Positions 18,465-41,755 of a stretch of DNA of 64,000 nt are shown here, piece by piece (position 1 is the stretch's first letter; the number at the start of each line of letters is the position of its first letter). The DNA is taken from the IMG/VR virus record IMGVR_UViG_3300045988_166882; one strand, 5' to 3'. The notes beneath the pieces are model-generated. The model saw nothing but the letters and a program-made list of their open reading frames with translations. It ran no database searches and was not told the DNA's origin. Origin of the DNA: a virus. The position numbers and the translations under genes are program-made.

Positions 18465-20225
18465 ATGTCCGGTGTAAAAGAAAGATTGGAATCGGTAGAA
18501 CGCGCCATGCAGGCTCTCACGATACGTAAATCGTTGTTGATGGAGCGAGCGTTGCGCAGCGACAACCCGTCCGACATACTCAAAGCCGCTGAGATATTCA
18601 ATCAGCAATCCAAGCCCGCTAACGTTGCTCCGAAGGCGTACCTGATCGACCCTTTGGAGTTCAATTCGTTTTTGGGCTATAAGGATAAGCCGTTTTCGCT
18701 TTCGTACGAAACGCTCCGCCGGATGAGCCGCACCCCCATCATCAACTCAATCCTCAAGACCCGTAAGAACCAGATAGCCGACTTCGCTGAACCGCAGGCC
18801 GACCGCTATTCGACGGGCTTCGTGATTCGCCGTAAGCCCAAGCACGGCCAAGAGCAGAAGATGGATTCACAGGACCGCAAGATCGCGTCTTCCATCACCG
18901 ACTTCATCCTCAACTGCGGCGATACCGCTACGTGGGACGGCGACGAGTTTGATGAGTTTATTCGTAAAATCGTTGACGACTCGTTGACGTTCGACCAGAT
19001 GACGTTCGAGTGTATCCGGAACCGCCGCGGCAAACTGGTACGCTTTCAGGCCGTGGACGCCGCTACGTTCCGTCTTGCGGAATCGTACTTCGACGGCGAG
19101 TACAACAACCCGTACTTCGACGGCGCCATGACCGACGATCGCCAAAATTGGGGTCCCAAGGTCGACGGCTATTATCCGGCCTACGTTCAGGTGTACCAAA
19201 CAGCCAAGGTGGCGCAGTTCTATCCGTGGGAGTTGTGCTTCGGTATTCGCAATCCGACCACGTCGATCTACGCCAACGGCTACGGCAACTCAGAGTTGGA
19301 AGAGTTGATCAACGTGGTCACGTCGATGCTTTGGGGTGATGAATACAACCGCCGTTTCTTCTCACAAGGTTCTGCGCCGAAGGGTCTGCTCCGCATCAAG
19401 GGTAACGTCAACGAGGCGTCACTCCAGCAGTTCAAGCAGCAGTGGCAGGCCATGATATCCGGCGTTATGCAGTCGTGGAAGACGCCCGTCGTTGAGGGCG
19501 ATATCGACTGGGTTGACCTCCAGAAGAACAACCGCGACATGGAGTACAACTCTTGGATGGAGTACCTGATCAAGATCGCGTGCGCCGTATTCTGTATTGA
19601 CCCCACGGAAATCGGCTGGGATATTTCACGCTCCAACGGCAGCGGCCTTACCTTCGGCGACGGCCAAAAGCAGCGCATGGAGCAATCGAAAGACAAGGGT
19701 CTCTACCCGATGCTGAAATTCATCCAGCGTAAGATCAACAAATTCATCGTCGAGCAGATCAACCCCGACTTCGAGTTTGTGTTCATGGGCCTCAACGGTA
19801 TGACCATCTCCGAGGAATTGGAGATGGACATCAAACGCCTCCAAGCCTTCCAGACCGTGGACGAGATTCGCGAGAAGTGGGACCTCCCGGCTATCGGCGA
19901 AGAAAAGGGTGGCGATACCATCGAGAACGCCGTCATCCAGCAAGCACTCAGCGCCAAGCAACAGCAGCAACAGGCGATGGGTGGTATGGGCGGCGGCAAC
20001 CCGTTCGAAGAGGCTGCGGGTATGGGTATGGAAGTCGCGGGTGGCCCGGCTGATGAACCTGTGGCTGGCGGCGAAGGTGAGGAAGACGATGAAGCGCAGG
20101 CCGGCAACCCGTTCGATCTCTACGCCCAAGGCGACGAAGAAGAAACTATGAAGGCCCGTGAGGCAAATCCGCTCGTGGCCGCATTCGATGAATACTTACA
20201 AAAAGCAATAAACCATGACGAGTAA
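18465..20225 (+). CDS. portal protein (probable)
   Basis: 586 aa. The central region (NGYGNSELEELINVVTSMLWGDEYNRRFFSQGSAPKGLLRIKG...WKTPVVEGDIDWVDL...KIACAVFCIDPTEIGW) resembles Phage_portal-type proteins. The C-terminal tail is acidic and Gln/Gly-rich. Confidence 0.65.
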   Translation: MSGVKERLESVERAMQALTIRKSLLMERALRSDNPSDILKAAEIFNQQSKPANVAPKAYLIDPLEFNSFLGYKDKPFSLSYETLRRMSRTPIINSILKTRKNQIADFAEPQADRYSTGFVIRRKPKHGQEQKMDSQDRKIASSITDFILNCGDTATWDGDEFDEFIRKIVDDSLTFDQMTFECIRNRRGKLVRFQAVDAATFRLAESYFDGEYNNPYFDGAMTDDRQNWGPKVDGYYPAYVQVYQTAKVAQFYPWELCFGIRNPTTSIYANGYGNSELEELINVVTSMLWGDEYNRRFFSQGSAPKGLLRIKGNVNEASLQQFKQQWQAMISGVMQSWKTPVVEGDIDWVDLQKNNRDMEYNSWMEYLIKIACAVFCIDPTEIGWDISRSNGSGLTFGDGQKQRMEQSKDKGLYPMLKFIQRKINKFIVEQINPDFEFVFMGLNGMTISEELEMDIKRLQAFQTVDEIREKWDLPAIGEEKGGDTIENAVIQQALSAKQQQQQAMGGMGGGNPFEEAAGMGMEVAGGPADEPVAGGEGEEDDEAQAGNPFDLYAQGDEEETMKAREANPLVAAFDEYLQKAINHDE

Positions 20226-26592: not shown

Positions 26593-27122
26593 CAAAGGCT
26601 TTTCACGAGGCCAGCCGATATCGCGCCGATCACTTACGTAAGGCCCTTGGTGGTTTTACGGAGAACGGCCTGATCGAAAAGGGCCGTTCAAAGAGCGGTC
26701 GCTACGCCAACACGGCTGAGAATCGAAGAAAGGGACGTGTTGGCATGCCTTATGAAAAGAAAGGCCGTGGACCAGCGCCACACCAGCGTCGAGATTCTGA
26801 ACATCGCCGAAACGGTACGTATATTCGTACGCTTACTGCAGGTGACGGGAACGAGGCTCTCGAAATAGGCGAAGACGGCGTTGCTCGTAATGATTTTTAC
26901 GACAACCAAGAAGTCGGCAAATACACCAAGAAATACGAAAAAGTCAACAACGGAGACAAGGTTCGTTATGGTAGTAGAATCTATACCGTTTACGCCACAA
27001 AGAACTTAACCGAAGGCGGGGTAACAACGCAATTCGTTCAATTCACTGGTAAGCCTTCTTACAGTGGTGCTCCGCGTGGAACGGGCAAGTGGGTTCCCCG
27101 AAAAGACGTCGAGAAACTATGA
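26574..27122 (+). CDS. hypothetical basic protein carrying the YANTAENRRKGRVG motif (182 aa)
   Basis: IEKGRSKSGRYANTAENRRKGRVGMPY aligns with IEKARHGVYADNAQNRRLQRVGQEY of the 23809 ORF. Confidence 0.5.
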   Translation: MQVDEVTKAFHEASRYRADHLRKALGGFTENGLIEKGRSKSGRYANTAENRRKGRVGMPYEKKGRGPAPHQRRDSEHRRNGTYIRTLTAGDGNEALEIGEDGVARNDFYDNQEVGKYTKKYEKVNNGDKVRYGSRIYTVYATKNLTEGGVTTQFVQFTGKPSYSGAPRGTGKWVPRKDVEKL

Positions 27123-28051
27123 TTTTCAACAATCGCCAAATAGACGACATGGTCGGCATTCTCCGGCGTTGGCAGTACCTGTTTATTGCCAAGCACGTCG
27201 GATTAGACTTTCTGACCCAGTCGGAGATCGACATCTTGGTGGCGTCAGGGGTCAACGTCGATAAGTACAAGAACACGAAAGGTATCATCGAACACGCTTT
27301 TCTGTTCGGTATCTTGGCTGAGGCACTCGGCGATCAACGCGCCAAGAAGATGAATTACAAGCAGTTTCTCCAGTACCTCAAATCAGGAAACTTCGTTCCG
27401 CTCACCGAGCAGGAGGAGAACGCGCTGAATTATCTCAAGAACCGCGCCTACACCGACATCACGTCGCTCGGAAACCGTATCGTTACCGGTACGCGCAACG
27501 CCATCCTCAAATCTAACTTTCGTCAGCAAGCCGCCATACGCCAGCAGATCAAAGATAAGGCCATGCAAGCCGTCCAACTGCGTAAGGGGGCGCGGTATAT
27601 AGCCAGCGAATTGGGGAACCTTACCCAAGACTGGGGACGCGATTGGCTGCGTATTGCGTACTACCTTCTGCACGAAGCCTACAACGTGGGCCGCTCGGAA
27701 AGTATCTACAAGCAGTATGGCCCCGACGCTATGGTGTATTTCGACGTATACCCCGGCGCGTGTGCCAAATGCCGCGAGTTGTACTTGGAGGACCCCGAAG
27801 ACCCTAATTCGAAGCCAAAACTGTTCCGCCTCGGAGACCTTATCGCCAACGGTAACAATATCGGCCGTAAGGTGGCTGAGTGGCTTCCTACGATCGACCC
27901 GACGCACCCCTACTGCCGCTGTACTATCAACCACGTACCGCCGGGGTACGAGTGGGACCCTGAAACACGCGCTTTCACCAAGCCTGTCAAGCGTCAGTTC
28001 AAGAACCCAAAGTTAAGGAACGTGAAACTCAACATTAAAGTAACAAAATAA
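27119..28051 (+). CDS. head morphogenesis protein, SPP1 gp7 / Mu F-like
   Basis: C-terminal LPTIDPTHPYCRCTINHVP carries the HPxCRC signature of the family. The start is taken at the ATGA overlap (27119) rather than track start 27089. Confidence 0.7.
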   Translation: MIFNNRQIDDMVGILRRWQYLFIAKHVGLDFLTQSEIDILVASGVNVDKYKNTKGIIEHAFLFGILAEALGDQRAKKMNYKQFLQYLKSGNFVPLTEQEENALNYLKNRAYTDITSLGNRIVTGTRNAILKSNFRQQAAIRQQIKDKAMQAVQLRKGARYIASELGNLTQDWGRDWLRIAYYLLHEAYNVGRSESIYKQYGPDAMVYFDVYPGACAKCRELYLEDPEDPNSKPKLFRLGDLIANGNNIGRKVAEWLPTIDPTHPYCRCTINHVPPGYEWDPETRAFTKPVKRQFKNPKLRNVKLNIKVTK

Positions 28052-29010
28052 TGAAAAACAAAATCGTACAAGACCCCCCGTTCACCATGCAGATCGAGCC
28101 GACCGAGGGTTGTAACTTGGGGTGTTCGTTCTGCGGCCTTCACGGCATGCGTGAAAAGGGTACCAAACCGTGGAATTTCATGACCGTCGAAACCGCCGAG
28201 CGTATCGCTTCTGAGGTAGCGCGTGTGGGCTGGAATTGCAAGTTCGTGTTCGCTATGCACGGCGAACCCACGCTCAACCCGGCGTTCATCGACATCGTGG
28301 CCACGTTCCGCAAGCACTTGCCGAAGGCCGTGTTCCATATGTACAGCAACGGCTACGCCATGAACCACGCCGACGACACCGAGGCTTACCTCGACCGCCT
28401 GTTCGGCGCTGGCATGAACGACATCTTGGTGGACTGCTACACCGCCAACGGCGACTGGAATTTCGTCGAGAAGATCGATGTCGATAAGTACAACGTCGTC
28501 ACGCTGGAACCGGGCGTTCCGTACTACTACCCCAAGCAGGGCCGTCGTATCTGCTTGCTGCCGCCCATCGCCCAGGACGATACCAACAAGATGACGCGGC
28601 GTCTGGCCAACCACTGCGGCGCGGCGTTCCCGCTCGACGATTCGTTCAACAACAAGCGTTGTACTTTCCCGTTCCGGGAACTGGACGTGCGCTGGAACGG
28701 TCAGGTCTGCTTGTGTTGTGACGACTTCCGCGGTGAGTACCCCATCGCCAACATCCACGACATGCCCATCGAAGACCTTTGGAACCACCCGCGCTTCCAC
28801 GCCGCTCGCGTGATGCTGTACAATAACGACCGCCGCTTCCGCCCGTGTCAGGGGTGTACGCACGTCAGCGTTCGCGTTGGCTTCCTGCCTGACAAGAAGG
28901 GTAAGCAGACGCTGCCGGCTATCACGCCCGAAATCCGCCGTATGGCTGAAGAGGTATCGAAGGACGGCCCCTGCGCCGAGAAGATTTACCGACGGCCATG
29001 GGAAAAATAA
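28051..29010 (+). CDS. radical SAM enzyme with C-terminal Cys-rich (SPASM/twitch-like) extension
   Basis: EPTEGCNLGCSFCG contains CxxxCxxC, and HGEPTLNP resembles the SAM-binding motif. C-terminal cysteines: CTFPF...CLCCDDF...CQGC. The start overlaps the MuF stop (TAATG). Confidence 0.85.
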   Translation: MKNKIVQDPPFTMQIEPTEGCNLGCSFCGLHGMREKGTKPWNFMTVETAERIASEVARVGWNCKFVFAMHGEPTLNPAFIDIVATFRKHLPKAVFHMYSNGYAMNHADDTEAYLDRLFGAGMNDILVDCYTANGDWNFVEKIDVDKYNVVTLEPGVPYYYPKQGRRICLLPPIAQDDTNKMTRRLANHCGAAFPLDDSFNNKRCTFPFRELDVRWNGQVCLCCDDFRGEYPIANIHDMPIEDLWNHPRFHAARVMLYNNDRRFRPCQGCTHVSVRVGFLPDKKGKQTLPAITPEIRRMAEEVSKDGPCAEKIYRRPWEK

Positions 29011-29681: not shown

Positions 29682-30485
29682 ATGGATTGTCAATTCTTCG
29701 TCGTGTCCAAGAACCGCCCCAAGTGCGTCACGACCAAATTGTTGGAAAAGGGCGGCGTCGACTACCACATCGTGGTCGAAAAGGAAGACGTTGAAAAGTA
29801 CGTCGAAGCAGGTCACGACCGTAAGCGGTTGATCGTACTACCAGCGTCGAACCGCGGCTACAGCTACGTGGTCAATTTCTGCAAGAACACCTACCTCCGC
29901 GCCGGGCGGCCTGTGGTGGTGATGGATGACGATATCGCCAACTTCTTCTACTCGATCGACGGCGAAGCCAAATGCGGCCTTTCGCTGAAGACCCCAGAAG
30001 AACTGTCAGAGTTCTTTGAAGAGTTCAACCGCGAAGTCATGGAGACCGACTTCGAGTACGGCACCATGGGCAAGAGCGCCTTCGACTGGAGTTGTACCGA
30101 CGTCAGCCCGCGTTTCAAGTACGGCGGTATCCCTCACCTCATCGTGTTCAAAGGGCTGCGGACGCTGGAGTTGGACTTTGACGAAAAGTTGGAGTTGAAG
30201 TGCGACATCGACTATTCGTTGAAGTGTATGTATCTGGGCATCGTCTACGCACGCTTCGTACGCTTCCTTCTCCAGAGTAAGATGAACAAGGAGGCAAATC
30301 AGGGCGGCGGCCTTCAAGACGTGTACGAGCGTCAGGAACGTGTTCAGCGTGCTCACAACATCATATTGAAGCGGTGGCCGCTGAACGCCCGTGTCGATGA
30401 CAAGAAGAAGCCCATCAACGGCGTACCGGAGTTACGTATTGTGTACAAGAAATTTGATATTGACTTTGATGCGGTGGAGGTGTAG
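29682..30485 (+). CDS. GT-A-like (DxD) glycosyltransferase candidate, paralogue of 11494..12309
   Basis: FFVVSKNRP...HIVVEKEDV...VVVMDDDIANF...ANQGGGLQDVY. See the entry at 11494. Family not verified. Confidence 0.45.
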   Translation: MDCQFFVVSKNRPKCVTTKLLEKGGVDYHIVVEKEDVEKYVEAGHDRKRLIVLPASNRGYSYVVNFCKNTYLRAGRPVVVMDDDIANFFYSIDGEAKCGLSLKTPEELSEFFEEFNREVMETDFEYGTMGKSAFDWSCTDVSPRFKYGGIPHLIVFKGLRTLELDFDEKLELKCDIDYSLKCMYLGIVYARFVRFLLQSKMNKEANQGGGLQDVYERQERVQRAHNIILKRWPLNARVDDKKKPINGVPELRIVYKKFDIDFDAVEV

Positions 30486-30520: not shown

Positions 30521-32269
30521 ATGTCAGACAATATCCAAAAAGCAAAGCACAACGTCGGCGATCATCATCCTACGCAACCGTGGGTGTGGACGGAGTACAA
30601 GCCCGGAAAGTTCAACTGGCGTGTCGACAAGAACGCCAAACCCAAGGACAACGCCGATACCGGTAAACAATCGACAGGCGGCGGCGCCACGAGCCTCGAA
30701 GAGTGGGCTAAGCGTACCACCGACGACAACCTGCTCAAAGTAGTAAACAACCCCAAAGGTAACGCGCAGTTGCGGCAGATTGCCTACAACGAACTGAAGT
30801 CACGTAACGCCGATCTTTTGCAGGTCGATACAAGCGGTACGTTGGCCACGCTGTTGAAGATGACCACCCAGCAGGACCCCGTGGCACCCACCAACGCCGC
30901 GGCTAAAGTAGACATCAACGACGGCGAGGGCGGAAACGACGACGGTGAAATCGTTGAAGACTGGTTCCTCAACCCTGACGACCCGCGCATTCAGAAGAAG
31001 TTCAACAAACTCCAAAGCCGTCAGGACCGTATTGCGTACGACCGCTTCGTCTACGCGATGAAGAAGAAGGACCCTGACTACCAGCCGCCTGTTGAGGTGA
31101 TGTACGACCTGAACCGCCAGTATCTGGAGTTCTTGGACAACAAGGAGCAGCGGTTCATGATCTCGGCTGGTGGTGCCGGTATCGGTAAATCGTACGGTTT
31201 CAAGAAAATCGCCGAACTGCTCAACAAGCGTCCGTTTGACGCCGAAACCGACGCGCCGGGCGATGGCGACTATGACTACGTTGAACTCGGTGACATCAAC
31301 TCCAAGAAGCAGCTGCTGGGCGTACTCAAAGCCCACAACGGCAAGATTCTTCTGTTCGACGATACCGACTCCGTTATCACCCGCGCCGACTTGGCTTCCA
31401 TCATGAAGAAGGCCACTTCCGCTTCAGGTAAGCGCGTGGTCGGAGACCCGGACGACGTCAAGTCGAATTTCGTATTCACGGGCCGTATCATCATCATGAC
31501 CAACAAGGACCTCGTGAACCTCGCCAAGAACGAGGATGCCAAGGCTATCATTTCGCGCGCTACGCTGACGTCGGAAGTCTACCTGACCGTTGACGAGACG
31601 ATCGAGGTTCTGAAGGACCGCTACGAAGACATGGACGTTCCCCAGCAGCCGCACCTCGATGACCCCGAAGAGGACAAGCAGGAACGTAAAGAACTGTTTG
31701 ACCTTATTGTCAAGAACAAGAATAAGATCGACCCTGCCAAGTTTACCACCCGTACCTTTGGCACCATCTTGTCGGAGAAGCGTTCTGCCGACCGCGCTAA
31801 CAAGCGCGCCAAGCAGGGCGGTCAGTGGACAAACCTGATCGGCAGCCAGCAAAAGGAGTGGGAACGCGCCGCCGTTCGTGCACTGACGAAGGGACTCGCG
31901 TACGAGGCCATTCAACCCGTCGAAACGTCGGATGATATCAGTAAGGCCGAAGCCCTGCTCAGCGACGCAGAATCGCTCGAAAAGGCCGATTTTACCGAAG
32001 AGCAGCGTGAGAAACTTGCCAAGAAGAAGGAGGCCCTCCCTGACGGCTCGTTCCCGATTCGTAACAAGTCCGACCTGAAGAACGCCATCCGTCTTGCTGG
32101 TAACGCCAAAAACCCCGAACGCGCTCGGCGCTGGATCAAACGCCGCGCCAAGTCGCTCGGTGCTGAGGATATGATCCCCGACACGTGGAAGGCTCAGACT
32201 ACTGACCTCGGTTCGCTGCCGGCTGACGACATGTCGATCGAAAAGGCTGAAACCCTCTTGTTCGGATAA
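30521..32269 (+). CDS. P-loop NTPase (AAA-like) with phage-type C-terminal DGSFPIRN...AIRLAGNAKNP motif
   Basis: Walker A ISAGGAGIGKSYG, Walker B KILLFDDTD, then GRIIIMTNK. The C-terminal LPDGSFPIRNKSDLKNAIRLAGNAKNPERARRWIKRRAKSLG resembles a short module I recall from actinophage capsid/protease-associated proteins. Confidence 0.65.
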   Translation: MSDNIQKAKHNVGDHHPTQPWVWTEYKPGKFNWRVDKNAKPKDNADTGKQSTGGGATSLEEWAKRTTDDNLLKVVNNPKGNAQLRQIAYNELKSRNADLLQVDTSGTLATLLKMTTQQDPVAPTNAAAKVDINDGEGGNDDGEIVEDWFLNPDDPRIQKKFNKLQSRQDRIAYDRFVYAMKKKDPDYQPPVEVMYDLNRQYLEFLDNKEQRFMISAGGAGIGKSYGFKKIAELLNKRPFDAETDAPGDGDYDYVELGDINSKKQLLGVLKAHNGKILLFDDTDSVITRADLASIMKKATSASGKRVVGDPDDVKSNFVFTGRIIIMTNKDLVNLAKNEDAKAIISRATLTSEVYLTVDETIEVLKDRYEDMDVPQQPHLDDPEEDKQERKELFDLIVKNKNKIDPAKFTTRTFGTILSEKRSADRANKRAKQGGQWTNLIGSQQKEWERAAVRALTKGLAYEAIQPVETSDDISKAEALLSDAESLEKADFTEEQREKLAKKKEALPDGSFPIRNKSDLKNAIRLAGNAKNPERARRWIKRRAKSLGAEDMIPDTWKAQTTDLGSLPADDMSIEKAETLLFG

Positions 32270-32272
32270 CCC

Positions 32273-34657
32273 ATGGACGAACTGAGAAAAGCGCTGGAAA
32301 CTTTCGCCCTCCGTAACGCCGAGGGCGAAGTTTCTGACGCCATGCTGGAGAAGGCGTGTGAGGCGTACAAGGTTCGTTCTTCAGAGTTCGTCGACGACTA
32401 CCAGTATAACCTGTACGTGGCGAAGTCCGTCTACGATCACCTCCATGGCGTCGATCAAGACCCTGAAATTTCAAAGGCTATCATGCCCGGCCAGACTAAG
32501 GTTGTCGATGGCGTGGTGTATATTTGGACGCTTACCCCTAACGCCAAAACGAAGTACGACTGGCGAGTTTACAAGAATCCTCAAGGTACACCCGTTGGAA
32601 AGGGTCCTTTTCGCTCTAAAGCCATATTAGAACGGCAGCAGAAGGAAGTGAACGAAATGTTCCCCGCCGACCCCTCTGAATTGACCTTCGTTCAGAAACT
32701 GGGCGGTTCTACGGGGGCTGAGTTGATGAAAGACGCCAAGGGCCGTGAGTTCGTCGTAAAGAGTTCTAAGAACACCACCCGCGGTCACATCGCAGCGGAG
32801 TACTACGCCGCGCAGGTATACAGCCTTTTGGGGTTGGACACGCCTGACTATGAAATGTACGACGACGGAACGGACCTCGTGTTGATATCGAATTACATGC
32901 GCGGCATGTCCGAACCTCAAGTTAAGGACTACGACACCATGGCTAAAGGCTTTGTCGTTGACGCCTTTTTGGCCAACTGGGATATTTACAAAAACGACAA
33001 CTGCTTGGTTGACGCCGCTGGTAAAGTCTACCGCGTCGACAACGGTAGTACGTTTGATTACCGTGCCCAAGGAGCCAAGAAGCCTTTTGGCAACCAAATC
33101 GACTGGGATAACATGGTGCGGTACAATTCCAGCGTGGTTGCCAACCTCAAGCCGCAGGACTTCATCGATCAGATTGACGCCCTGAAAGCCCGTAAAGACG
33201 AAGTATTGGCGTATTTTGACGCCGGAAGGCTCGGTTCCAAGCCGAAGATGCGCGCCATCATTGAGGCTCGTTTCAAAGACCTCGACCGCATCCGCGGTAT
33301 TTATGAGATAGAAGTACGTCGTACCAGCAGACAAGTTGCGCCCCGAACGCTCAAGTCTCCGGCAGATATGTACCGCGACTTCACCGAAGATGAGATCAAT
33401 GATTTTTGGAATAATCAGCCCGGAGCCGATTATTACCAAAAGTTACAACGTCACAGCGGCCATACGGGGTGGGAACTGCTCTCTACCATTTGTAGCGCTC
33501 GTGGCTTTGATGCGCGGCCTGATGTAGTCGACGACGCTACGTTCTTCGCCAAGGCTGCTCAGAATAAGTATCATATGTTCCGGGGAGTGGAACGTAACGG
33601 AACGGATAAAAACTACTACGCCGACGACTTCAAGTACAACGACGCTTGTTACTACGGAACTGTTGGTGTGTATGCTGAAGGAATCTATTTCCATGTGAAC
33701 GATTCGTCTAACGCCGACCGCACTCCATCCGGCTATCAGAAGACTTCGGCTTATCACAACGCTCGCGGTTACGCGGGTAGTGGTGCCATTATCGAGGCAG
33801 TTCTCGACGACAGCGCCAAGGTCATAACCGTTAATGACGCTCGTGAAGAGGTCAAGCAACTGTCTGCCGGTAATTCACCTGCTTTCCAAAAGGCAAAAAA
33901 AGAACTCGACGACGCCAAGGCCGAATACCAGCGCGTAACCGACGAACTCAACAACCTTACCGACACTACCGAAAAGAAGGTAAAGTCCGATATGCACTGG
34001 GACGACGCTTCGTACGTCGATATCCCGTTACAAATCGACCAGATTATCGACTGGGGTGCCATCGACGATGACGGCAACCCGGCATACATGAAGTTTGACG
34101 ACTTCATGGATAATCACCTAAAAGGCTGGATCAAGGCTAACGGCGGTACTATTACGGCCAAGGGTGGAGGCACCGACGACTACGTCATCAAGATGCCTAA
34201 CACCAACGAACGGTTCGTCTTTTCGCGCTTTCGGTACGAGAACGACGCTATCAAACGTAAGAACGCATTTGCGCGTCCGTACAACTATCCCGTTCGCCAG
34301 CTGAAGGAATGGATCATGCGCGAGCACTTCGGTAAAATTGAAGATGCCGTAAAGAGTGCCATCAACAACTTGGATGACGAAGTGAAACGTTTGCAGGGCG
34401 AACAGCGCAAGGCGTATGTCGATTACAAAGACAAGGACAACGCCATGAGCAAGTTGAGCGTAAACGCCGTTGGTGATCCTGATAAGGACATCTATGCTGC
34501 CATCTACAAGAACGTTCATAAGGACGGCGAAAAAGAAGCACTGGGCGTATACGCTGCTTTGAAGGGATATGACGCCCTTATTCAGCCTAACGGAAACGGT
34601 TCCGGTAACTCGTTCATGATCGTGTTGAATCGCTCTAAAATCATTACTCGTAAATAG
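32273..34657 (+). CDS. large multidomain protein: protein-kinase-like fold plus ADP-ribosyltransferase-like domain
   Basis: Kinase-like region: GGSTGAELMKDAKGREFVVKSS, AAEYYAAQVY, DAFLANWDIYKNDNCLVDAAGKVYRVDNGSTF (catalytic loop plus DxG-like). ART/PARP-like region: YHMFRGV, YYGTVGVYAEGIYFHV, GSGAIIEAVL. All by-eye calls. Confidence 0.55.
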   Translation: MDELRKALETFALRNAEGEVSDAMLEKACEAYKVRSSEFVDDYQYNLYVAKSVYDHLHGVDQDPEISKAIMPGQTKVVDGVVYIWTLTPNAKTKYDWRVYKNPQGTPVGKGPFRSKAILERQQKEVNEMFPADPSELTFVQKLGGSTGAELMKDAKGREFVVKSSKNTTRGHIAAEYYAAQVYSLLGLDTPDYEMYDDGTDLVLISNYMRGMSEPQVKDYDTMAKGFVVDAFLANWDIYKNDNCLVDAAGKVYRVDNGSTFDYRAQGAKKPFGNQIDWDNMVRYNSSVVANLKPQDFIDQIDALKARKDEVLAYFDAGRLGSKPKMRAIIEARFKDLDRIRGIYEIEVRRTSRQVAPRTLKSPADMYRDFTEDEINDFWNNQPGADYYQKLQRHSGHTGWELLSTICSARGFDARPDVVDDATFFAKAAQNKYHMFRGVERNGTDKNYYADDFKYNDACYYGTVGVYAEGIYFHVNDSSNADRTPSGYQKTSAYHNARGYAGSGAIIEAVLDDSAKVITVNDAREEVKQLSAGNSPAFQKAKKELDDAKAEYQRVTDELNNLTDTTEKKVKSDMHWDDASYVDIPLQIDQIIDWGAIDDDGNPAYMKFDDFMDNHLKGWIKANGGTITAKGGGTDDYVIKMPNTNERFVFSRFRYENDAIKRKNAFARPYNYPVRQLKEWIMREHFGKIEDAVKSAINNLDDEVKRLQGEQRKAYVDYKDKDNAMSKLSVNAVGDPDKDIYAAIYKNVHKDGEKEALGVYAALKGYDALIQPNGNGSGNSFMIVLNRSKIITRK

Positions 34658-38682: not shown

Positions 38683-40227
38683 ATGTTTAAGGACGATAAA
38701 TTCAATTTCTGGTGCCCTATCGGGCGCATCGAGAAGGCCACCGACGAAGCGGGTGAACCCGTTATGCGTATCGGCGGTATTGCCTCTACCATGGATAAGG
38801 ACGCCGATGGCGAATACCTCGATCCCACGGGGTTTGACATCGAGCCGCTGAAGAACTCCGGAATGGTTAACTGGCACCACCAAGCCAAGAACTCCCCAGC
38901 CGCTATTATCGGTGAGCCGTCGAAGGTCGAGTTGCGTCCTGAAGGTCTTTGGATCGAGAGCGACCTGTACGCTTCGTCGCCTATGGCTAATGAGGTCTAC
39001 GAACTGGCCAAAACTCTCGAAGAAGACAGCAAGACGCGCCGCTTGGGGTATTCCATCGAAGGAAAGGTTGTAAAGCGTGCTTCTAACGACAAGAAGTCGC
39101 CCCTCTACAACAAGATCGTTAAGGCCGTTATCACTGGCGTGGCCGTAACCCACATGCCCAAGAATCCTCATACGTTCGTCAACATCATAAAAGGCCAAAT
39201 CGACGCCGACGGCATTGAGGTCGATTTGGAGGAAGAGGACGACAACGCCGAACAGCGCGGTGGTGATACCGAGAAGAAGGCTCTTACTACGTCCAGTGGC
39301 GCAGCGTTGATGCCTGAGTCGGTCGACGGCCAACCGAAGAAAACGTTCTCGAAATCTTCCGTCATGGAATGTATCTTCCGCGACATTCCAAATATTACAA
39401 TACCGAACGCCCAAGAAGTGTACACTTTAATCAAAAACATATCGGTTATGAACAAACGCAAATCCATCACTTCCGAGGACATCGAGAAGGCATACGACGC
39501 TCTGGGGCTGAATCCCGAGGGTAAGGTTGCCGCCGATGCCGAAGACGTGCAAAAGGGTGACGACGCCGACGGCCAGATGGGTAAGGAAGACGAAACCCAC
39601 GACGACGAGCCGCGTCATAACGCCGCCAACATGAAAAATGCTAAGGCCGGCAAGAAGGAGGAATCCGAAGAGGAGACCGAAGACGACGACGAGGGCTTCG
39701 AGCAGTGCGACAAGAACGGAGCCAAGATGAAGAAGGCCGCCGACAACGACCTCATGAAGGCTATTCAGGGCATTGGTAACGACTTCAAGTCGTACATCAA
39801 AGCTACTGCCGTACTGGTGAACGATCTCCGTCAGAAACGCGCTGAGGACGCTAAACGTATCGCCGAACTCGAAGACGTCATCAAAGGCCAGACCGAGGTC
39901 ATCGAAGGCTTCTCTACCAAACTGGAACGCTACGGCAGCGAGGTTCCGCGCCCCAAGTCGCTGCGTTCGGCTACGGTGGTTGACCGCGCTTTCGCCAAGG
40001 GTGACACCAAAGGCGACATCGAGAAGGCCGACGGCATTACCCGTATCTCCATGACGGAGCATCCCAAGGCCGTTGCTTCGCTGCTCGATCAGGCGTCGTT
40101 CGCCAAGGGCTACGACAAGGAGTACGGTGACGCGCTTTTGGCGTTTGAGGCCAGGCCGGAAGACGGCGTTCCTTCGAACATCATCGCTCGTCTGAAGGCG
40201 GAAACCGGATACGAGATCGTGAAGTAG
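38683..40227 (+). CDS. prohead protease (HK97/U35-like) fused to an acidic scaffold-like C-terminal region
   Basis: The N-terminal ~170 aa (DKDADGEYLD..., VNWHHQ..., AAIIGEP, RLGYSIEGKV) look like a prohead serine protease. The C-terminal ~300 aa are acidic and coiled-coil-like. It lies directly upstream of the capsid gene. Confidence 0.7.
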   Translation: MFKDDKFNFWCPIGRIEKATDEAGEPVMRIGGIASTMDKDADGEYLDPTGFDIEPLKNSGMVNWHHQAKNSPAAIIGEPSKVELRPEGLWIESDLYASSPMANEVYELAKTLEEDSKTRRLGYSIEGKVVKRASNDKKSPLYNKIVKAVITGVAVTHMPKNPHTFVNIIKGQIDADGIEVDLEEEDDNAEQRGGDTEKKALTTSSGAALMPESVDGQPKKTFSKSSVMECIFRDIPNITIPNAQEVYTLIKNISVMNKRKSITSEDIEKAYDALGLNPEGKVAADAEDVQKGDDADGQMGKEDETHDDEPRHNAANMKNAKAGKKEESEEETEDDDEGFEQCDKNGAKMKKAADNDLMKAIQGIGNDFKSYIKATAVLVNDLRQKRAEDAKRIAELEDVIKGQTEVIEGFSTKLERYGSEVPRPKSLRSATVVDRAFAKGDTKGDIEKADGITRISMTEHPKAVASLLDQASFAKGYDKEYGDALLAFEARPEDGVPSNIIARLKAETGYEIVK

Positions 40228-40267
40228 AAACACCCAAACTATTCCATAACATAATCAATTCCAAATC

Positions 40268-41755
40268 ATGGACAGACTTTCTATCAATCTCGCCGACTAT
40301 GGCATCCAAGCGCGTGGTGCCCAGTACGGCTCGTCCAGTCAGGAAGAGGTCGCTGCGCTGAACAAAGCCCTCGAAGCCACCGACATCACGGGTCGTCAGA
40401 CGACGAACCTTACCGATGCCTCCGGTGCGCCGCTGAAGGTGGAGTCGCTGGAGCGTACTCTGAAGCACCTGACGTTCCGTGAGAGCGACATCGTTCTCTG
40501 GAAGAACCTGCCGAAAAAGGCCGCCTACAACACCGTTGAGGAGTACAACCAGTTGGCATCGTACGGTGCTGACCGCGGTGGCTTCACCAACGAAGGCGAA
40601 CTCCCCGACGAGGAAGACTCGATCTACATCCGTCGGGCTCAGCTGGTGAAATACCTCGGCGTCACCAAGTCGGTTACGCACCAGATGACCCTCGTCAACA
40701 CGATGGTGGGCAACATCATGGAGCGCACCATCAAAGACGGTACGCTGTGGATTCTCCGCAAGCTGAACAAGTCGCTGTACTACGGCAACTCGGACATCAT
40801 CCCGCAGGAGTTCAACGGTCTGCTGGCTCAGCAGCTGCAGTCGGACGCATGGAGCGGTCTGGACGCTTACCTCAACTCTGAGAACGTGATCGACCTTCGC
40901 GGTCGTGGCCTGACCGAGGACCCCATCGAGACGGCTGCCAACTCGATCGTCGAGAACTACGGCCTCGGAACCGAGCTGTATGCTCCCCCCGCCGTTCTTT
41001 CGGACTTCGTCAAGACGTTCTACGGCAACAAGTTCATCCAGCCCAACACCGCCCAGACCAGCGCCGGTATCATGGGTCAGCGCGTTCAGGCGTTCGACTC
41101 GCAGTTCGGCCGCATCGGCCTCAACTACGACGTCTTCTTCAAGAAGGCTCCGTTCAAGGTTGCTGGTGCTCAGTCGACGCATCCCAAGTCGCCCGCCGCT
41201 CCCGTATGGGACACCGCCGCTCCGGCTACGGTTGTTGCTGACGTGACGACCTCGAAGTTCAACTCGGAGGACGCTGGCAACTACATCTACGCTATCGCAG
41301 CCATCAACCGCCACGGCGAGTCGTCGCTGGTGGTGAACGAGACTCCGGTGGCCGTGACTGCGGGGTCGGTCGTTGACCTCAAGTTCTCGATCGTGGACAA
41401 CGCTCACCCGGCTACGGGTTATCGCGTGTACCGTTCGAAGAAGGGTGGCGACAAGAACAGCAAACTGTACCCGATCTTCGACATCTCGGTGGCTCAGCTG
41501 AAACTGGGTTACGCAGGGGCTGCCGGCGATCTGTGCCGCGATAACAACTACTTCCTGCCCGACTGCGATCAGGCCTTCCTGGTTCAGTTCGACAACGAAG
41601 TGATCGAGTTCGCTCAGCTGGCTCCGCTGATGAAGATGGACCTCGCGATTCTGTCGCCTGCGTACCGCTTCATGGTGCTGCTGTACGGTACGCCGTTCCT
41701 GTACGCGCCGAAGAAGTTGGTCCGCCTGATCAACATCGGACGCGCCTCCAACTAA
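40268..41755 (+). CDS. major capsid protein (HK97-fold, probable)
   Basis: 495 aa, directly after the protease/scaffold and followed by a strong hairpin. The N-terminal region resembles MCP families that carry a delta-like segment. The antisense 408-aa ORF is judged a shadow ORF. Confidence 0.7.
   Translation: MDRLSINLADYGIQARGAQYGSSSQEEVAALNKALEATDITGRQTTNLTDASGAPLKVESLERTLKHLTFRESDIVLWKNLPKKAAYNTVEEYNQLASYGADRGGFTNEGELPDEEDSIYIRRAQLVKYLGVTKSVTHQMTLVNTMVGNIMERTIKDGTLWILRKLNKSLYYGNSDIIPQEFNGLLAQQLQSDAWSGLDAYLNSENVIDLRGRGLTEDPIETAANSIVENYGLGTELYAPPAVLSDFVKTFYGNKFIQPNTAQTSAGIMGQRVQAFDSQFGRIGLNYDVFFKKAPFKVAGAQSTHPKSPAAPVWDTAAPATVVADVTTSKFNSEDAGNYIYAIAAINRHGESSLVVNETPVAVTAGSVVDLKFSIVDNAHPATGYRVYRSKKGGDKNSKLYPIFDISVAQLKLGYAGAAGDLCRDNNYFLPDCDQAFLVQFDNEVIEFAQLAPLMKMDLAILSPAYRFMVLLYGTPFLYAPKKLVRLINIGRASN

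What the first reader, a model, noticed from the sequence alone, without database searches (positions are those of the whole stretch)
32273..34657. 794-aa fusion of a kinase-like domain and an ADP-ribosyltransferase-like domain, possibly an injected host-takeover effector
The N-terminal third shows a protein-kinase/PI3-4K-like pattern:
- Gly-rich GGSTGAE.
- Lys in FVVKSS.
- Glu in AAEYY.
- Catalytic-loop-like DAFLANWDIYKNDN.
- Mg-binding-like RVDNGS.

The middle shows an ART/PARP-like pattern: HMFRGV, GVYAEGIYF and a catalytic-Glu strand AIIEAVL.

The gene sits in a run of large non-structural-looking genes next to the MuF-like gene. In other phages MuF is often fused to, or adjacent to, toxin or ART cargo that is packaged and ejected.

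T4 Alt (a packaged ART) and T7 gp0.7 (a kinase) are separate precedents. A single polypeptide combining both activities would be unusual.
Basis: partly seen in the sequence, partly recalled or inferred. Interest (0 to 1): 0.7.

Follow-up and report, generated by a model that had tools for sequence, protein, structure and literature searches.

The report
Phage kinase plus PARP-like effector protein
A gut Bacteroides-type phage encodes, inside its head-assembly gene block, a conserved 794-residue protein with a real HipA/CtkA-like kinase domain and a probable, very divergent PARP-like ADP-ribosyltransferase domain; it is most likely a protein delivered with the DNA, a kind of effector already described for other phages.

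Summary
The ORF 32273-34657 (+) is real and has over 160 full-length homologue clusters on ~100-kb gut-metagenome contigs.

**Kinase domain (residues ~125-350): confirmed.**
- The AlphaFold model is confident (pLDDT 87). Foldseek matches many kinases, with the best target-normalised TM-score (0.49) to H. pylori CtkA.
- All ATP-binding and catalytic motifs are 92-96% conserved in 97 remote relatives.
- This module occurs in thousands of large phage proteins. It is often fused to portal or MuF proteins and to bona fide ARTs.

**ART domain: only moderately supported.**
- It is a split domain (397-521 + 752-794) with a ~230-residue insert.
- It is homologous to unsplit units in other phage proteins.
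- These relatives give only sub-threshold hits, but almost all of those hits are to ARTs: ART-PolyVal, PARP, tankyrase, PARP4 and a diphtheria-like toxin.
- R437, Y472 and D767 are invariant.
The PARP-type Glu position holds Phe781.

**Already in the literature.**
- Benler et al. 2021 described this kinase, with its upstream AAA ATPase and glycosyltransferase, in "Gratiaviridae".
- Iyer et al. 2017 described kinase and ART domains in polyvalent proteins.

Packaging and ejection are inferred, not shown. Verdict: partly supported; a new member of a known kind.

The parts
32273..34657 (+). 794-aa gene for the kinase / ART-like multidomain protein
   Evidence: ORF list and translation. 164 homologue clusters. 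AF2 model with mean pLDDT 87.4.
32273..32632 (+). N-terminal region (res 1-120): three helices plus a conserved beta-hairpin, 'PGQTKVVDGV.YI.T......YDWRV'. Function unknown; a possible capsid-targeting or anchoring part (inference).
   Evidence: Conservation in A1. Secondary structure of the model. Replaced by a different ~285-aa N-terminus in relatives P0159 and P0161-P0162.
32645..33322 (+). Protein-kinase-like domain (res ~125-350), HipA/CtkA-like
   Evidence: Foldseek against PDB finds kinases at E 1e-5 to 1e-3 with probability 1.0. The best target TM-score is 0.49, to CtkA 3akk_B. HipA_C hits in 9 of 33 members and HipA_2 hits in 4, all sub-threshold. 5,886 clusters match the full-length profile; those listed beyond the full-length family and its fragments match the kinase part, with one exception, P0176.
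32702..32719 (+). Gly-rich ATP loop GGSTGA (res 144-149)
   Evidence: Invariant or nearly invariant in A1. G145 is present in 94 of 98 aligned remote domains.
32759..32800 (+). Predicted ATP-anchoring Lys163 and helix-C Glu176
   Evidence: K163 in 93 of 98 and E176 in 94 of 98 remote domains.
32960..33046 (+). Catalytic segment D230..N235-W-D237..D242-N243 and Mg-binding-type R254-V-D256-N-G258
   Evidence: D230 92, N235 93, D237 92, D242 90, N243 93, R254 92, D256 93 and G258 93, each out of 98 remote domains. The assignment of roles is by analogy with the HipA/APH/PI3K 'D....N' and 'D(F)G' motifs (inference).
33323..33460 (+). Linker between the two enzymatic modules (res 351-396): largely coil with short helices, following the long helix 324-351
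   Evidence: DSSP of the model.
33461..33835 (+). ART-like domain, N-terminal half (res 397-521). It holds 'RGFDARP', strand 1 'MFR437G', strand 2 'G.G.YaeGIY472fH', helix 'A..YA', and strands 'AIIEAVL' and 'KVIT'.
   Evidence: Homologous to four unsplit units of P0176 (domain E 6e-14 to 1e-9) and to standalone proteins P0283-P0303. R437, G470 and Y472 are invariant over 33 diverse sequences. Sub-threshold hits go to a DT-like toxin, tankyrase and PARP4.
33791..33793 (+).
   Evidence: The alignment column varies among E, N, K, L and I. The strand aligns with the non-catalytic PARP4 strand 'LLLICDVALG'.
33836..34525 (+). ~230-residue insert within the ART-like domain (res 522-751): two long coiled-coil hairpins flanking a small alpha/beta module (res ~595-660). 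Function unknown; possibly target recognition (inference).
   Evidence: Model secondary structure. The two halves lie only ~70-95 residues apart in P0176 units and ~85 apart in P0163. Foldseek finds only coiled-coil look-alikes.
34526..34654 (+). ART-like domain, C-terminal part (res 752-794): 'LG.YAALKGYD767ALIQP..GN..NSF781MIVLN786R787SK'
   Evidence: G765, D767, N786 and R787 are invariant in 33 diverse sequences. 'GYD' aligns with PARP4 'PPGYDSV'. The PARP-type Glu position, just before the next hydrophobic strand, is Phe in this family and E, Q or Y in relatives.
30521..32269 (+). Upstream partner gene: 582-aa P-loop ATPase (Walker A 'GAGIGKS', Walker B-like 'LLFDD')
   Evidence: Translation. 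Weak AAA_30 and phrog_1250 hits. A 624-aa gene sits in the same position in distant relative L003. PMC8008677 describes the same AAA ATPase - kinase pairing.
29682..30485 (+). Upstream glycosyltransferase, of the TET-associated (DNA-base) glycosyltransferase family
   Evidence: Pfam TAGT, E 1.3e-13, above the cut-off. A second copy lies at 11494-12309.
27089..28051 (+). Probable MuF-like minor head protein ('DPTHPYCRC' signature)
   Evidence: Motif search and translation. Homologues occur in SP-10-like Bacillus phages; one is annotated as a minor capsid protein. There is no Pfam hit.
18465..20225 (+). Portal protein, the upstream boundary of the head module
   Evidence: phrog_12, E 3.5e-45.
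38683..41755 (+). Head maturation protease (38683-40227) and major capsid protein (40268-41755), the downstream boundary of the head module
   Evidence: phrog_1028, E 1.4e-34. phrog_752, E 4e-86. MCP is 49% identical to that of Bacteroides phages DAC19 and relatives.

Best explanation
The gene encodes a late-expressed, multidomain effector of the 'polyvalent protein' type in a Gratiaviridae-like myovirus of gut Bacteroidota.

**Domains**
- Residues ~125-350 form an active-looking HipA/CtkA-like kinase. The putative roles are ATP loop GGSTGA, K163, E176, catalytic D237, N243 and D256.
- Residues 397-521 plus 752-794 fold together into a very divergent PARP/diphtheria-toxin-like ADP-ribosyltransferase-superfamily domain. 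It has Arg437 where those enzymes have His, Tyr472, and an invariant GYD767 motif.
- This second domain is interrupted by a ~230-residue coiled-coil/alpha-beta insert that probably recognises a target.

**Proposed mechanism**
1. The protein is made with the head proteins.
2. It is incorporated into the procapsid.
3. It is ejected with the DNA.
4. It then modifies host proteins by phosphorylation, and binds or uses NAD+, at the very start of infection. This would combine T4 Alt-like delivery with T7 gp0.7-like chemistry.

**Shown versus inferred**
- Shown: the gene, the kinase fold, residue conservation, the split-domain homology, and the fusion partners of both modules in other phages.
- Inferred: kinase activity, ART-fold membership, any NAD+ chemistry, packaging and ejection, and the targets.
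For: **Kinase**
- Confident model.
- Foldseek hits to many kinases with probability 1.0, including CtkA, PI3K-delta, RioK1 and the kinase of lanthipeptide synthetase ThurKC.
- HipA_C and HipA_2 are the only enzyme families recurring in the Pfam scan of members.
- Catalytic residues are 92-96% conserved over 97 clusters that are below 50% identity to each other.
- HHpred gave 99% to HipA for what appears, from the identical gene layout, to be the same protein of this phage family (PMC8008677).

**Effector and packaging context**
- The gene lies between portal and protease/MCP here.
- In the 39%-identical relative L003 it sits two genes before a 506/497-aa pair matching the window's protease and MCP in size and order.
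- The same kinase module is covalently fused to portal proteins: P0178, P0213, P0226 and BFVD A0A6J5S481.
- It is fused to MuF plus a PF03496 ART in P0194, and to ART-PolyVal in P0172.
- It occurs in 3-5 copies in 3,100-3,400-aa proteins.
- Phage Jeremy and ECML-606-1 proteins pair it with a classical R-S-E ART.

**ART-like domain**
- Both halves match, in order, four unsplit units of P0176, which ends in a PF03496 ART.
- Standalone relatives exist, one directly after a MuF 'HPKCRC' motif (P0301).
- R437, G470, Y472, G765, D767, N786 and R787 are invariant in 33 sequences.
- P0176 units hit Pfam ART-PolyVal (E 0.036 and 0.047; 2.3e-5 for the whole protein) and PARP (0.16).
- In the PDB profile searches, 26 of 27, 30 of 31 and 6 of 6 listed hits are ARTs: Peptono toxin 7rb4 at E 0.085, tankyrases at 0.085-0.26 and PARP4 at 0.27.
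- Peptono toxin has Arg in place of DT His21 and is an active ART (PMC9018708).
Against: **ART assignment**
- No ART family reaches significance with the protein, its family profile or the spliced core.
- Foldseek of the confident C-terminal model gives no significant hit. The only ART-fold hit is MbcT, at E 1.8 and probability 0.13.
- hhalign against a narrow ART-PolyVal alignment is negative, with probability at or below 3%.
- The PARP-type catalytic Glu position is an invariant Phe781. The domain may therefore be a weak mono-ART, an NAD+/ADP-ribose binder, or inactive.

**Packaging**
- The protein has no portal, MuF or other recognisable virion-anchor domain.
- No proteomic data exist.
- The only published interpretation of this gene argues for a late, intracellular role (PMC8008677).
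- The flanking genes (radical SAM, TAGT glycosyltransferase) look like DNA-modification genes rather than head genes.
Confidence: 0.5

Rival explanations
1. This is the published reading (Benler et al. 2021). The kinase acts late inside the infected cell, together with the upstream AAA ATPase and glycosyltransferase. It modifies the host envelope or capsule, or otherwise gives temporary superinfection immunity. It is not packaged.
For: - The glycosyltransferase - AAA ATPase - kinase trio is conserved in five Gratiaviridae genomes (PMC8008677) and is present here.
- Its late-gene position fits late action.
- No virion-anchor domain is present in the protein.
Against: - The glycosyltransferase belongs to the TET-associated DNA-base glycosyltransferase family.
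- A second copy of it, a 5-hmdU DNA kinase, a dUTPase-like gene and a radical-SAM gene are also in the window. It more likely modifies phage DNA than capsule.
- The same kinase module is physically fused to portal and MuF proteins in many phages. That places the module inside virions.
- Late synthesis is exactly what packaged effectors such as T4 Alt show (PMC5512222).
Confidence: 0.2
2. The protein is a kinase-only effector. The C-terminal half (397-794) is not an ART-superfamily enzyme but a non-catalytic coiled-coil/alpha-beta module for oligomerisation, capsid anchoring or target binding. The ART-like motifs are then convergent or vestigial.
For: - There is no significant ART hit by sequence or fold.
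- Phe781 occupies the PARP-type Glu position.
- A large coiled coil dominates the Foldseek hits.
Against: - Seven residues spread over both halves are invariant across sequences of only 25-35% identity. That is typical of a ligand or active site.
- Sub-threshold hits are almost exclusively to ART families in two independent libraries.
- The unit is repeated in P0176 next to a bona fide ART, as described for ART domains of polyvalent proteins (PMC5512222).
Confidence: 0.22
3. The protein belongs to the phage's DNA-hypermodification machinery. The kinase-like domain would phosphorylate a modified base or a precursor. The ART-like domain would transfer a group to DNA, as DarT or pierisin do.
For: - The gene lies just downstream of radical SAM/SPASM, TAGT glycosyltransferase and ATPase genes.
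- The window also encodes a 5-hmdU DNA kinase and a second TAGT.
- Some ARTs modify DNA (general knowledge).
Against: - A dedicated 5-hmdU DNA kinase already exists at 17097-18107.
- For the distant relative L003, no Pfam family is on record for any called gene, so the radical-SAM and TAGT neighbours could not be confirmed there. The gene still sits two genes upstream of the putative protease and MCP.
- The kinase module's partners elsewhere are portal, MuF and toxin-type ARTs, not DNA-modification enzymes.
Confidence: 0.06

Closest known systems
HipA-family kinase domain protein of 'Gratiaviridae' gut phages (Benler et al. 2021, PMC8008677)
   Same: - Apparently the same protein family, judged from the published description.
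- Same position between portal and MCP.
- Same AAA ATPase and glycosyltransferase immediately upstream.
- Bacteroides/Parabacteroides-type phage with a contractile tail and ferritin-like genes.
   Different: - The paper annotated only the kinase domain and proposed late superinfection immunity.
- It did not describe the C-terminal ART-like split domain.
- It did not note the relation of the kinase module to portal/MuF/ART fusion proteins.
- I could not compare sequences directly with their genomes.
Polyvalent proteins of phages and conjugative elements (Iyer et al. 2017, PMC5512222)
   Same: - Several unrelated effector domains in one polypeptide, including kinase and ART domains.
- Encoded with head-morphogenesis genes.
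- Predicted to be packaged and injected.
- Relatives of both modules sit in portal or MuF fusions and in multi-copy arrays.
   Different: - This protein has no portal, MuF or peptidase domain, and only two enzymatic modules.
- The kinase described in that paper lacks the C-lobe and has a conserved His. I could not establish whether it is the same family.
- The ART here has Arg, not His, in strand 1, and does not reach the ART-PolyVal model.
Large kinase-module + R-S-E ART proteins of isolated phages: Pseudomonas phage Jeremy XTK87773.1 (1213 aa) and E. coli phage ECML-606-1 WCD43998.1 (2253 aa)
   Same: The same kinase-like module, 36% identical over ~135 residues (E 5e-18), sits in a polypeptide that also carries an ART.
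   Different: - Their ART is a classical C-terminal ADPrib_exo_Tox domain with R / STS / ExE motifs (PF03496).
- Here the second domain is PARP/DT-like, split and Glu-less.
- The rest of the proteins is unrelated.
T4 Alt (packaged ART) and T7 gp0.7 (early kinase)
   Same: These are functional analogies for the proposed mechanism: a capsid-delivered ART, and host-takeover phosphorylation.
   Different: - No detectable homology: Alt is an R-S-E ART and gp0.7 is a different kinase family.
- Neither combines both activities.
- Packaging is proven for Alt and only inferred here.
HipA (toxin kinase) and Helicobacter pylori CtkA
   Same: - The same kinase-like fold class. CtkA gives the highest target TM-score (0.49).
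- Weak HipA_C and HipA_2 profile hits.
   Different: - Scores are below Pfam gathering cut-offs.
- There is no HipB-like antitoxin context.
- The catalytic loop is 'NWD..(K)NDN' rather than, as I recall HipA's motif, 'D.H.KN'.
- The module is embedded in a phage multidomain protein.
PARP-family / diphtheria-toxin-like ARTs (tankyrase, PARP4, Peptono toxin 7RB4) and Pfam ART-PolyVal PF18760
   Same: - The motif order matches: strand 1 [H/R]-G, 'G.G(I)YF', helix 'A..YA', two strands, 'GYD(S/A)(V/I)', then a hydrophobic strand.
- Arg replaces His in active Peptono toxin.
   Different: - All matches are sub-threshold (E 0.04-1).
- There is a ~230-residue insert between the halves.
- Phe781 sits where PARPs have Glu or Ile/Leu/Tyr.
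- An extra invariant 'LNR' motif is present.

Membership tests
Protein-kinase-like superfamily (HipA/CtkA/PI3-4K-like branch) | Bilobal kinase fold | tested here: met
   The AF2 model (pLDDT 87) matches ThurKC kinase, CK1, PAK1, RNase L, CDC7, PI3K-delta, RioK1 and CtkA at E 1e-5 to 2e-3 with probability ~1.0.
Protein-kinase-like superfamily (HipA/CtkA/PI3-4K-like branch) | Gly-rich loop, ATP-anchoring Lys, helix-C Glu, catalytic Asp/Asn loop, and metal-binding Asp | tested here: met
   GGSTGA, K163, E176, D237, D242-N243 and D256 are invariant or nearly so in the family. They are 92-96% conserved in 97 remote relatives. Assignment of each residue to its role is by motif analogy, not by inspected superposition.
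Pfam HipA_C (PF07804) / HipA_2 (PF20613) | Score at or above the curated gathering cut-off | tested here: not met
   The window protein has no hit. 9 of 33 members hit HipA_C (best E 0.004) and 4 hit HipA_2 (best E 0.008); both E-values are marginal. P0163 scores 22.8 bits on HipA_2 against a cut-off of 27. A literature HHpred run reports 99% to HipA (PMC8008677).
Protein-kinase-like superfamily | Phosphotransfer activity and substrate | not testable with these tools
   Needs biochemistry.
ADP-ribosyltransferase superfamily (PARP/DT-like clade, ART-PolyVal PF18760) | ART split beta-sheet fold recognised by structure comparison | tested here: inconclusive
   Foldseek of the C-terminal model (pLDDT 90.5) against PDB has a best E of 0.6, to coiled coils. 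The only ART-fold entry is MbcT 6fkg_B, at E 1.8 and probability 0.13. The split by a 230-residue insert handicaps a local aligner.
ADP-ribosyltransferase superfamily (PARP/DT-like clade, ART-PolyVal PF18760) | Significant sequence or profile match to an ART family | tested here: not met
   Pfam and PDB searches with the protein, family profile and spliced core gave nothing. hhalign against an ART-PolyVal alignment gave probability at or below 3%. Sub-threshold hits are nevertheless nearly all ARTs: ART-PolyVal at 0.036/0.047, PARP at 0.16; Peptono toxin at 0.085, tankyrase at 0.085, PARP4 at 0.27.
ADP-ribosyltransferase superfamily (PARP/DT-like clade, ART-PolyVal PF18760) | Strand-1 His/Arg and strand-2 Tyr lining the NAD+ pocket | tested here: met
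   R437 (in 'FRG') and Y472 (in 'G.GIY') are invariant in 33 sequences of 25-58% identity. They align to Arg and Tyr of Peptono toxin and to 'G.GIYF' of tankyrase and PARP4.
ADP-ribosyltransferase superfamily (PARP/DT-like clade, ART-PolyVal PF18760) | Catalytic Glu (or Asp in the H-Y-D clade) on strand 5 | tested here: inconclusive
At the PARP-type position this family has an invariant Phe781, while relatives have E (7), Q (5) or Y (7). An invariant Asp767 in 'GYD' could be the H-Y-D-type acid (PMC5512222). However, it aligns with the 'GYDS' motif of PARP4, which precedes that enzyme's catalytic strand.
Polyvalent / capsid-packaged ejected effector proteins | Two or more disparate effector domains in one polypeptide, encoded with virion-morphogenesis genes | tested here: met
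   The protein has a kinase-like plus an ART-like module. The gene lies between portal (18465) and protease/MCP (38683/40268). The distant relative L003 shows a matching gene order just upstream of a protease/MCP-sized pair.
Polyvalent / capsid-packaged ejected effector proteins | Covalent or demonstrated link to a virion component (portal, MuF), or detection in virions | tested here: not met
   No portal or MuF domain is present in this protein. The link exists only in relatives: P0178, P0213 and P0226 (portal), P0194 (MuF) and P0301 (MuF motif). Presence in virions is not testable here.
MuF / SPP1 gp7 minor head protein (neighbouring gene 27089-28051) | Pfam Phage_Mu_F match, and the C-terminal 'P.HP.CRC' signature | tested here: inconclusive
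   There is no Pfam hit at E <= 0.01. The 'DPTHPYCRC' signature is present. One homologue is annotated as a minor capsid protein.

The most novel reading that the evidence does not exclude
The C-terminal half would define an unmodelled PARP-like ART clade. Its signature is R-Y with 'GYD...LNR', it is Glu-less in this phage, and it carries a 230-residue target-recognition insert. The whole protein would be a capsid-delivered effector with two chemistries: phosphorylation plus NAD+-dependent modification or NAD+/ADP-ribose sensing. Abundant human-gut Bacteroides phages would inject it at the first moment of infection. This would overturn the published late superinfection-immunity reading.
Probability: 0.3. 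Interest if true: 0.6.

Novelty: new member of a known kind. Interest (0 to 1): 0.4.

Why it matters
- **A testable reinterpretation.** If the protein is packaged and ejected, this common gut-phage gene would shift from late immunity to early host takeover. That can be tested directly.
- **An unmodelled kinase family.** The HipA/CtkA-like kinase module matches thousands of sequence clusters, is often welded to portal or MuF proteins, and none of the members scanned here reaches any Pfam gathering cut-off. It would be flagged as a major class of phage-delivered enzymes.
- **A possible new ART clade.** The 'RGFDA.P / FRG / G.GIY / GYDA / LNR' domain is likewise unmodelled. It may be a new PARP-like clade useful for annotating phage and prophage effectors.
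- **Limits.** None of this is conceptually new. Kinase and ART domains in injected polyvalent proteins, and this very kinase, are already in the literature.

Tried and rejected
1. **Direct searches of the protein.** Pfam, PHROGs and PDB-sequence searches gave only coiled-coil noise.
2. **crAss-like phage.** I first suspected this from the ~97-100-kb contigs. I rejected it because the MCP, portal and protease are SPO1/SP-10-like and nearest to Bacteroides phages DAC19 and relatives.
3. **Foldseek of the C-terminal half.** It gave no usable hit.
4. **Spliced ART core (A3).** It found nothing against PDB or Pfam.
5. **Comparison with an ART-PolyVal alignment.** hhalign and hmmsearch against an alignment built from P0172 relatives were negative. 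That alignment is narrow (Neff 2.8), so the negative result is weak.
6. **Cys-His-Asp peptidase reading of the middle domain.** I rejected it because C407 and C459 are not invariant.
7. **Shared N-terminal motif.** The ATPase 'WVWTEYKPGKFNWRVDKN' and this protein's 'YIWTLTPNAKTKYDWRVYKN' are not significantly similar (BLAST E 0.56).
8. **Phycobilisome linker CpcN.** It tops two PDB profile searches by summed score (E 0.003 and 4e-6). Each repeat is individually insignificant (E >= 49), and the matched stretch covers only 'QGYDAE...FRGF'. I treated it as a repeat-inflated chance match.
9. **D767 as the catalytic acid.** I could not settle this. The PARP4 alignment suggests D767 corresponds to the conserved 'GYDS' motif instead.

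Full report
**Observation**

The ORF 32273-34657 (+) exists as described: ATG start, 794 codons. It is clearly a gene.
- A search of 5.8 billion proteins returned 164 clusters at E <= 0.001.
- Most of the 120 listed are full length, from 99% down to 38% identity, mostly on gut-metagenome contigs of 95-100 kb.
- Some clusters are common, with several hundred member sequences each.

In a 33-sequence alignment (A1) the kinase motifs are invariant or nearly so. These are GGSTGA 144-149, K163, E176, D230, N235, D237, N241-D242-N243 and R254-V-D256-N-G258. So are R437-G438 and G470/Y472/H474. Glu507 of 'AIIEAVL', proposed as the catalytic Glu, is not conserved.

**Context**

The window is a tailed phage with an SPO1/SP-10-like head module:

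| Coordinates | Gene |
|---|---|
| 8757-11474 | Large terminase |
| 18465-20225 | Portal |
| 38683-40227 | Maturation protease |
| 40268-41755 | Major capsid protein, 49% identical to Bacteroides phages DAC19 and relatives |

The target gene lies between portal and protease. Upstream of it, in order, are:
- a probable MuF-like minor head protein (27089-28051). It has a 'DPTHPYCRC' signature, a homologue annotated as minor capsid protein, and no Pfam hit;
- a radical-SAM/SPASM protein;
- an unknown gene;
- a TET-associated glycosyltransferase (29682-30485);
- a 582-aa P-loop ATPase (30521-32269).

So the 'MuF-like gene' is 4.2 kb away, not adjacent. In a 39%-identical relative from a Hadza gut metagenome (L003), the layout is a 624-aa gene, the 800-aa homologue, a 118-aa gene, then genes of 506 aa and 497 aa. 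The last two match the window's protease (514 aa) and MCP (495 aa) in size and order; I did not compare their sequences.

**The gene is already in the literature**

Benler et al. 2021 (PMC8008677) defined 'Gratiaviridae', gut phages of Bacteroides and Parabacteroides with contractile tails and ferritin-like genes.
- They reported that five of these phages encode a HipA-family kinase domain protein (HHpred 99%).
- It lies between portal and MCP, with an AAA ATPase and a glycosyltransferase immediately upstream.
- That is the layout seen here. The window also has a ferritin-like gene at 13051-13638.
- They proposed a late role in superinfection immunity through envelope modification.
- They did not comment on the C-terminal half.

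**Kinase domain**

An AlphaFold2 model built on A1 is confident (mean pLDDT 87.4). Foldseek against the PDB gives 19 hits at E <= 1e-3, all kinases or kinase-fold proteins:
- lanthipeptide synthetase ThurKC kinase (1e-5);
- CK1, RNase L pseudokinase, CDC7, PAK1, PI3K-delta and AmiN;
- RioK1 and CtkA just above 1e-3.

The highest target-normalised TM-score (0.49 over 297 columns) is to the HipA-like H. pylori kinase CtkA. In a Pfam scan of all 33 members, the only recurrent enzyme families are HipA_C (9 members) and HipA_2 (4 members), and their best E-values (0.004 and 0.008) are marginal.

An exhaustive HMMER search of 1.84 billion cluster representatives with the A1 profile found 5,886 clusters at E <= 1e-3 and 3,257 at E <= 1e-10. 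Beyond the full-length family and its fragments, the listed hits (one exception, P0176, is treated below) match profile positions ~128-340. Most of them are proteins of roughly 500-3,400 residues, alongside some shorter and probably partial sequences.

In 97 such remote domains the key residues are present as follows:

| Residue | Present in (of 98 aligned) |
|---|---|
| G145 | 94 |
| K163 | 93 |
| E176 | 94 |
| D230 | 92 |
| N235 | 93 |
| D237 | 92 |
| D242 | 90 |
| N243 | 93 |
| R254 | 92 |
| D256 | 93 |
| G258 | 93 |
| K270 | 96 |

That is the signature of an active enzyme family. Assigning D237 as base, N243 and D256 as metal ligands, and K163/E176 as the ATP anchor is by analogy with the 'D....N' and 'D(F)G' motifs of HipA, aminoglycoside kinases and PI3K. 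It is an inference.

**What the kinase module is attached to elsewhere**

Pfam scans of representatives show these architectures:

| Protein | Architecture |
|---|---|
| P0178 | Phage_portal + kinase module |
| P0213 | Phage_portal_3 + kinase module |
| P0226 | Portal_Mu + kinase module |
| P0194 | Phage_Mu_F + kinase module + ADPrib_exo_Tox |
| P0172 | Kinase module + ART-PolyVal |

- P0140 carries five copies of the module and P0149 carries three.
- The BFVD fold search gives the same picture. It finds a portal fusion, Gordonia phage GodonK and Sixama proteins, two proteins named ADP-ribosyltransferase, and a 2'-5' RNA ligase fusion.
- In isolated phages, the 1213-aa protein of Pseudomonas phage Jeremy has the module at 645-780. 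It also has a textbook C-terminal R / STS / ExE ART.
- The 2253-aa protein of E. coli phage ECML-606-1 also combines the module with a C-terminal PF03496 ART.

Kinase plus ART in one phage polypeptide is therefore not unusual. It is the 'polyvalent protein' theme of Iyer et al. 2017, who list kinases and ARTs among the commonest domains (PMC5512222). They predict packaging into the head and injection with the DNA.

**ART-like half: direct tests fail**

- There is no Pfam, PHROG or PDB-sequence hit.
- A separate, confident model of residues 395-794 (pLDDT 90.5) finds only coiled-coil look-alikes in the PDB. The single ART-fold entry is MbcT, at E 1.8.
- The model's secondary structure and the conservation pattern show why. 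The conserved core is split.
- Residues 397-521 run helix, strand 'HMFRGV', helix, strand 'IYFHV', helix, and strands 'AIIEAVL' and 'VIT'.
- Residues 752-794 run helix, then strands 'ALIQ', 'FMIV' and 'IITR'.
- About 230 residues of coiled coil and a small alpha/beta module separate the two parts.

**ART-like half: homology to unsplit units**

Protein P0176 (1423 aa) resolves this. The A1 profile matches it seven times, as four ordered pairs of N-half and C-tail lying only 70-95 residues apart. HMMER reported the tail of the third pair only by eye, not as a hit (domain E 6e-14 to 4e-3). Its C-terminus is a PF03496 ART.

A profile of those four units found 21 further, mostly standalone proteins of 183-390 aa with no Pfam annotation. 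One of them (P0301) follows a MuF 'HPKCRC' motif.

Over 33 diverse sequences the invariant residues are R437, G470, Y472, G765, D767, N786 and R787. So this is one domain with an insertion hot spot, and it is under strong constraint.

**Is it an ART?**

The evidence is consistent but sub-threshold.
- *Pfam.* P0176 units hit ART-PolyVal (E 0.036 and 0.047; 2.3e-5 summed over the protein, below the cut-off). They also hit the PARP catalytic domain (E 0.16).
- *PDB, broadened profile A6.* 26 of 27 listed sequences are ARTs.
- *PDB, trimmed profile A7.* 30 of 31 are ARTs. These are the diphtheria-like Peptono toxin 7RB4 (E 0.085, 85 columns covering 'YRGVS', 'GLYAAE', 'AASYA' and the next strand), tankyrase-1/-2 (0.085-0.26) and PARP4 (0.27).
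- *PDB, profile A8.* All 6 listed sequences are ARTs.
- *The exception.* The phycobilisome linker CpcN owes its summed score to five individually insignificant repeats.
- *Arg for His.* Peptono toxin has Arg where DT has His21 and is a potent eEF-2 ADP-ribosyltransferase (PMC9018708). Arg437 in place of the PARP/DT His is therefore compatible with activity.
- *Negative results.* hhalign against an alignment of ART-PolyVal proteins related to P0172 is negative. That alignment is shallow.

I put the ART-superfamily assignment at about 0.65.

**Catalytic residues of the ART-like domain**

- The PARP4 alignment places 'KGYD767AL' on PARP4's 'PPGYDSV', which precedes the catalytic strand in PARPs.
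- By my own reading of PARP motifs, the PARP-type Glu position is then the residue just before the next hydrophobic strand.
- In this family that residue is an invariant Phe781. In the relatives it is Glu (7), Gln (5), Tyr (7) or other.
- This recalls the H-Y-E versus H-Y-I/L/Y split among PARPs (general knowledge).
- Alternatively, Asp767 is the 'strand-5 Asp' of the H-Y-D ARTs that Iyer et al. describe for polyvalent proteins.

The domain may therefore be a mono-ART, an NAD+/ADP-ribose-binding module, or catalytically dead. This cannot be decided here.

**Mechanism**

The best-supported reading is that the protein is a head-module-encoded effector. It would be made late, packaged, and ejected with the DNA. 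It would then phosphorylate host targets, and its ART-like domain would bind or use NAD+. The insert would act as a target-recognition element.
- Steps shown: fold, conservation, domain homology and fusion partners.
- Steps inferred: enzymatic activities, packaging, ejection and targets.

The published late-immunity hypothesis remains possible. It is weakened because the glycosyltransferase is of the DNA-base (TAGT) family. The window also holds a second TAGT, a 5-hmdU DNA kinase, a dUTPase-like gene and a radical-SAM enzyme, which together look like a DNA-hypermodification set. It is weakened further because the kinase module is physically part of portal and MuF proteins elsewhere. A role of the protein itself in DNA modification is unlikely but not excluded.

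**Novelty and score**

- The kinase is already published for this phage family.
- The combination of kinase and ART in injected phage proteins is a known theme.
- New here are four points: the probable PARP-like split domain, the link of the Gratiaviridae kinase to the very large portal/MuF-associated kinase module family, the fact that none of the members scanned here reaches a Pfam gathering cut-off, and a testable alternative to the published function.

I rate it a new member of a known kind, with interest 0.4.

Noticed in passing
window 17097-18107 (+), 11494-12309 (+), 29682-30485 (+), 28051-29010 (+), 12306-12869 (+): A likely DNA-hypermodification gene set. It comprises a 5-hmdU DNA kinase (HMUDK_hel, E 7e-50), two TET-associated glycosyltransferases, a radical-SAM/SPASM enzyme and a dUTPase/dCTP-deaminase-like protein. 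The glycosyltransferase that the literature tied to capsule modification is of the DNA-base family.
   Followed up: partly
window 30521-32269 (+): The 582-aa ATPase upstream has a Walker A 'GAGIGKS'. It has a C-terminal 'GSFPIRNKSDLKNAIRLAG' motif. Its N-terminal hairpin 'WVWTEYKPGKFNWRVDKN' resembles 'YIWTLTPNAKTKYDWRVYKN' of the target protein. The resemblance is not significant by BLAST (E 0.56). It could still be a shared targeting element.
   Followed up: partly
window 27089-28051 (+): A 320-aa protein with a MuF-type 'DPTHPYCRC' signature and no Pfam hit. It is conserved in SP-10-like Bacillus phages, Bacteroides phages DAC/SJC and Chryseobacterium phage MA9V-3.
   Followed up: partly
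window 13051-13638 (+): A ferritin-like/rubrerythrin-like protein (Pfam Ferritin, E 3e-8). It fits the DPS-like genes reported as a hallmark of 'Gratiaviridae'.
   Followed up: no
window 8757-11474 (+) and 5954-6832 (+): The large terminase is unusually long at 905 aa. Its N-terminal ~390 residues hit other terminase, primase and helicase PHROGs separately from the C-terminal terminase part. A NUMOD3 homing-endonuclease-type gene lies nearby. This may be a fusion or a split/intein-type arrangement.
   Followed up: no
P0176 (1423 aa, metagenomic protein found): A polyprotein-like array: four copies of the unsplit R-Y-GYD-LNR domain, then a C-terminal PF03496 ART. The units are separated by Pro/Gly/Cys-rich stretches such as 'PGEVHPGPCPG' and 'PGDVHPGPCKG', which could be linkers or processing sites.
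   Followed up: partly
relatives P0284-P0300: Many standalone relatives of the ART-like domain begin with a conserved 'HPRD..GRF' or 'YKRD.RGRFGSG' N-terminal motif. Its meaning is unknown; it could be a packaging or cleavage signal.
   Followed up: no
window 35614-37359 (+) and 20486-22108 (+): Two large head-module ORFs of 581 and 540 aa have no Pfam or PHROG match. The first has a Gly-rich run and a beta-rich composition. They could be decoration, fibre or further cargo proteins.
   Followed up: no
PDB entry 8imn chain 5 (CpcN): The phycobilisome linker repeats ('QGYDAEIDSY..EEY...FGED.VPFFRGF') resemble the first ~45 residues of the ART-like domain ('QGFDA.P.VV..EE......G..ELFRG'). The summed E is 4e-6, but each repeat is individually insignificant. 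I judged it a chance match inflated by repeats.
   Followed up: partly
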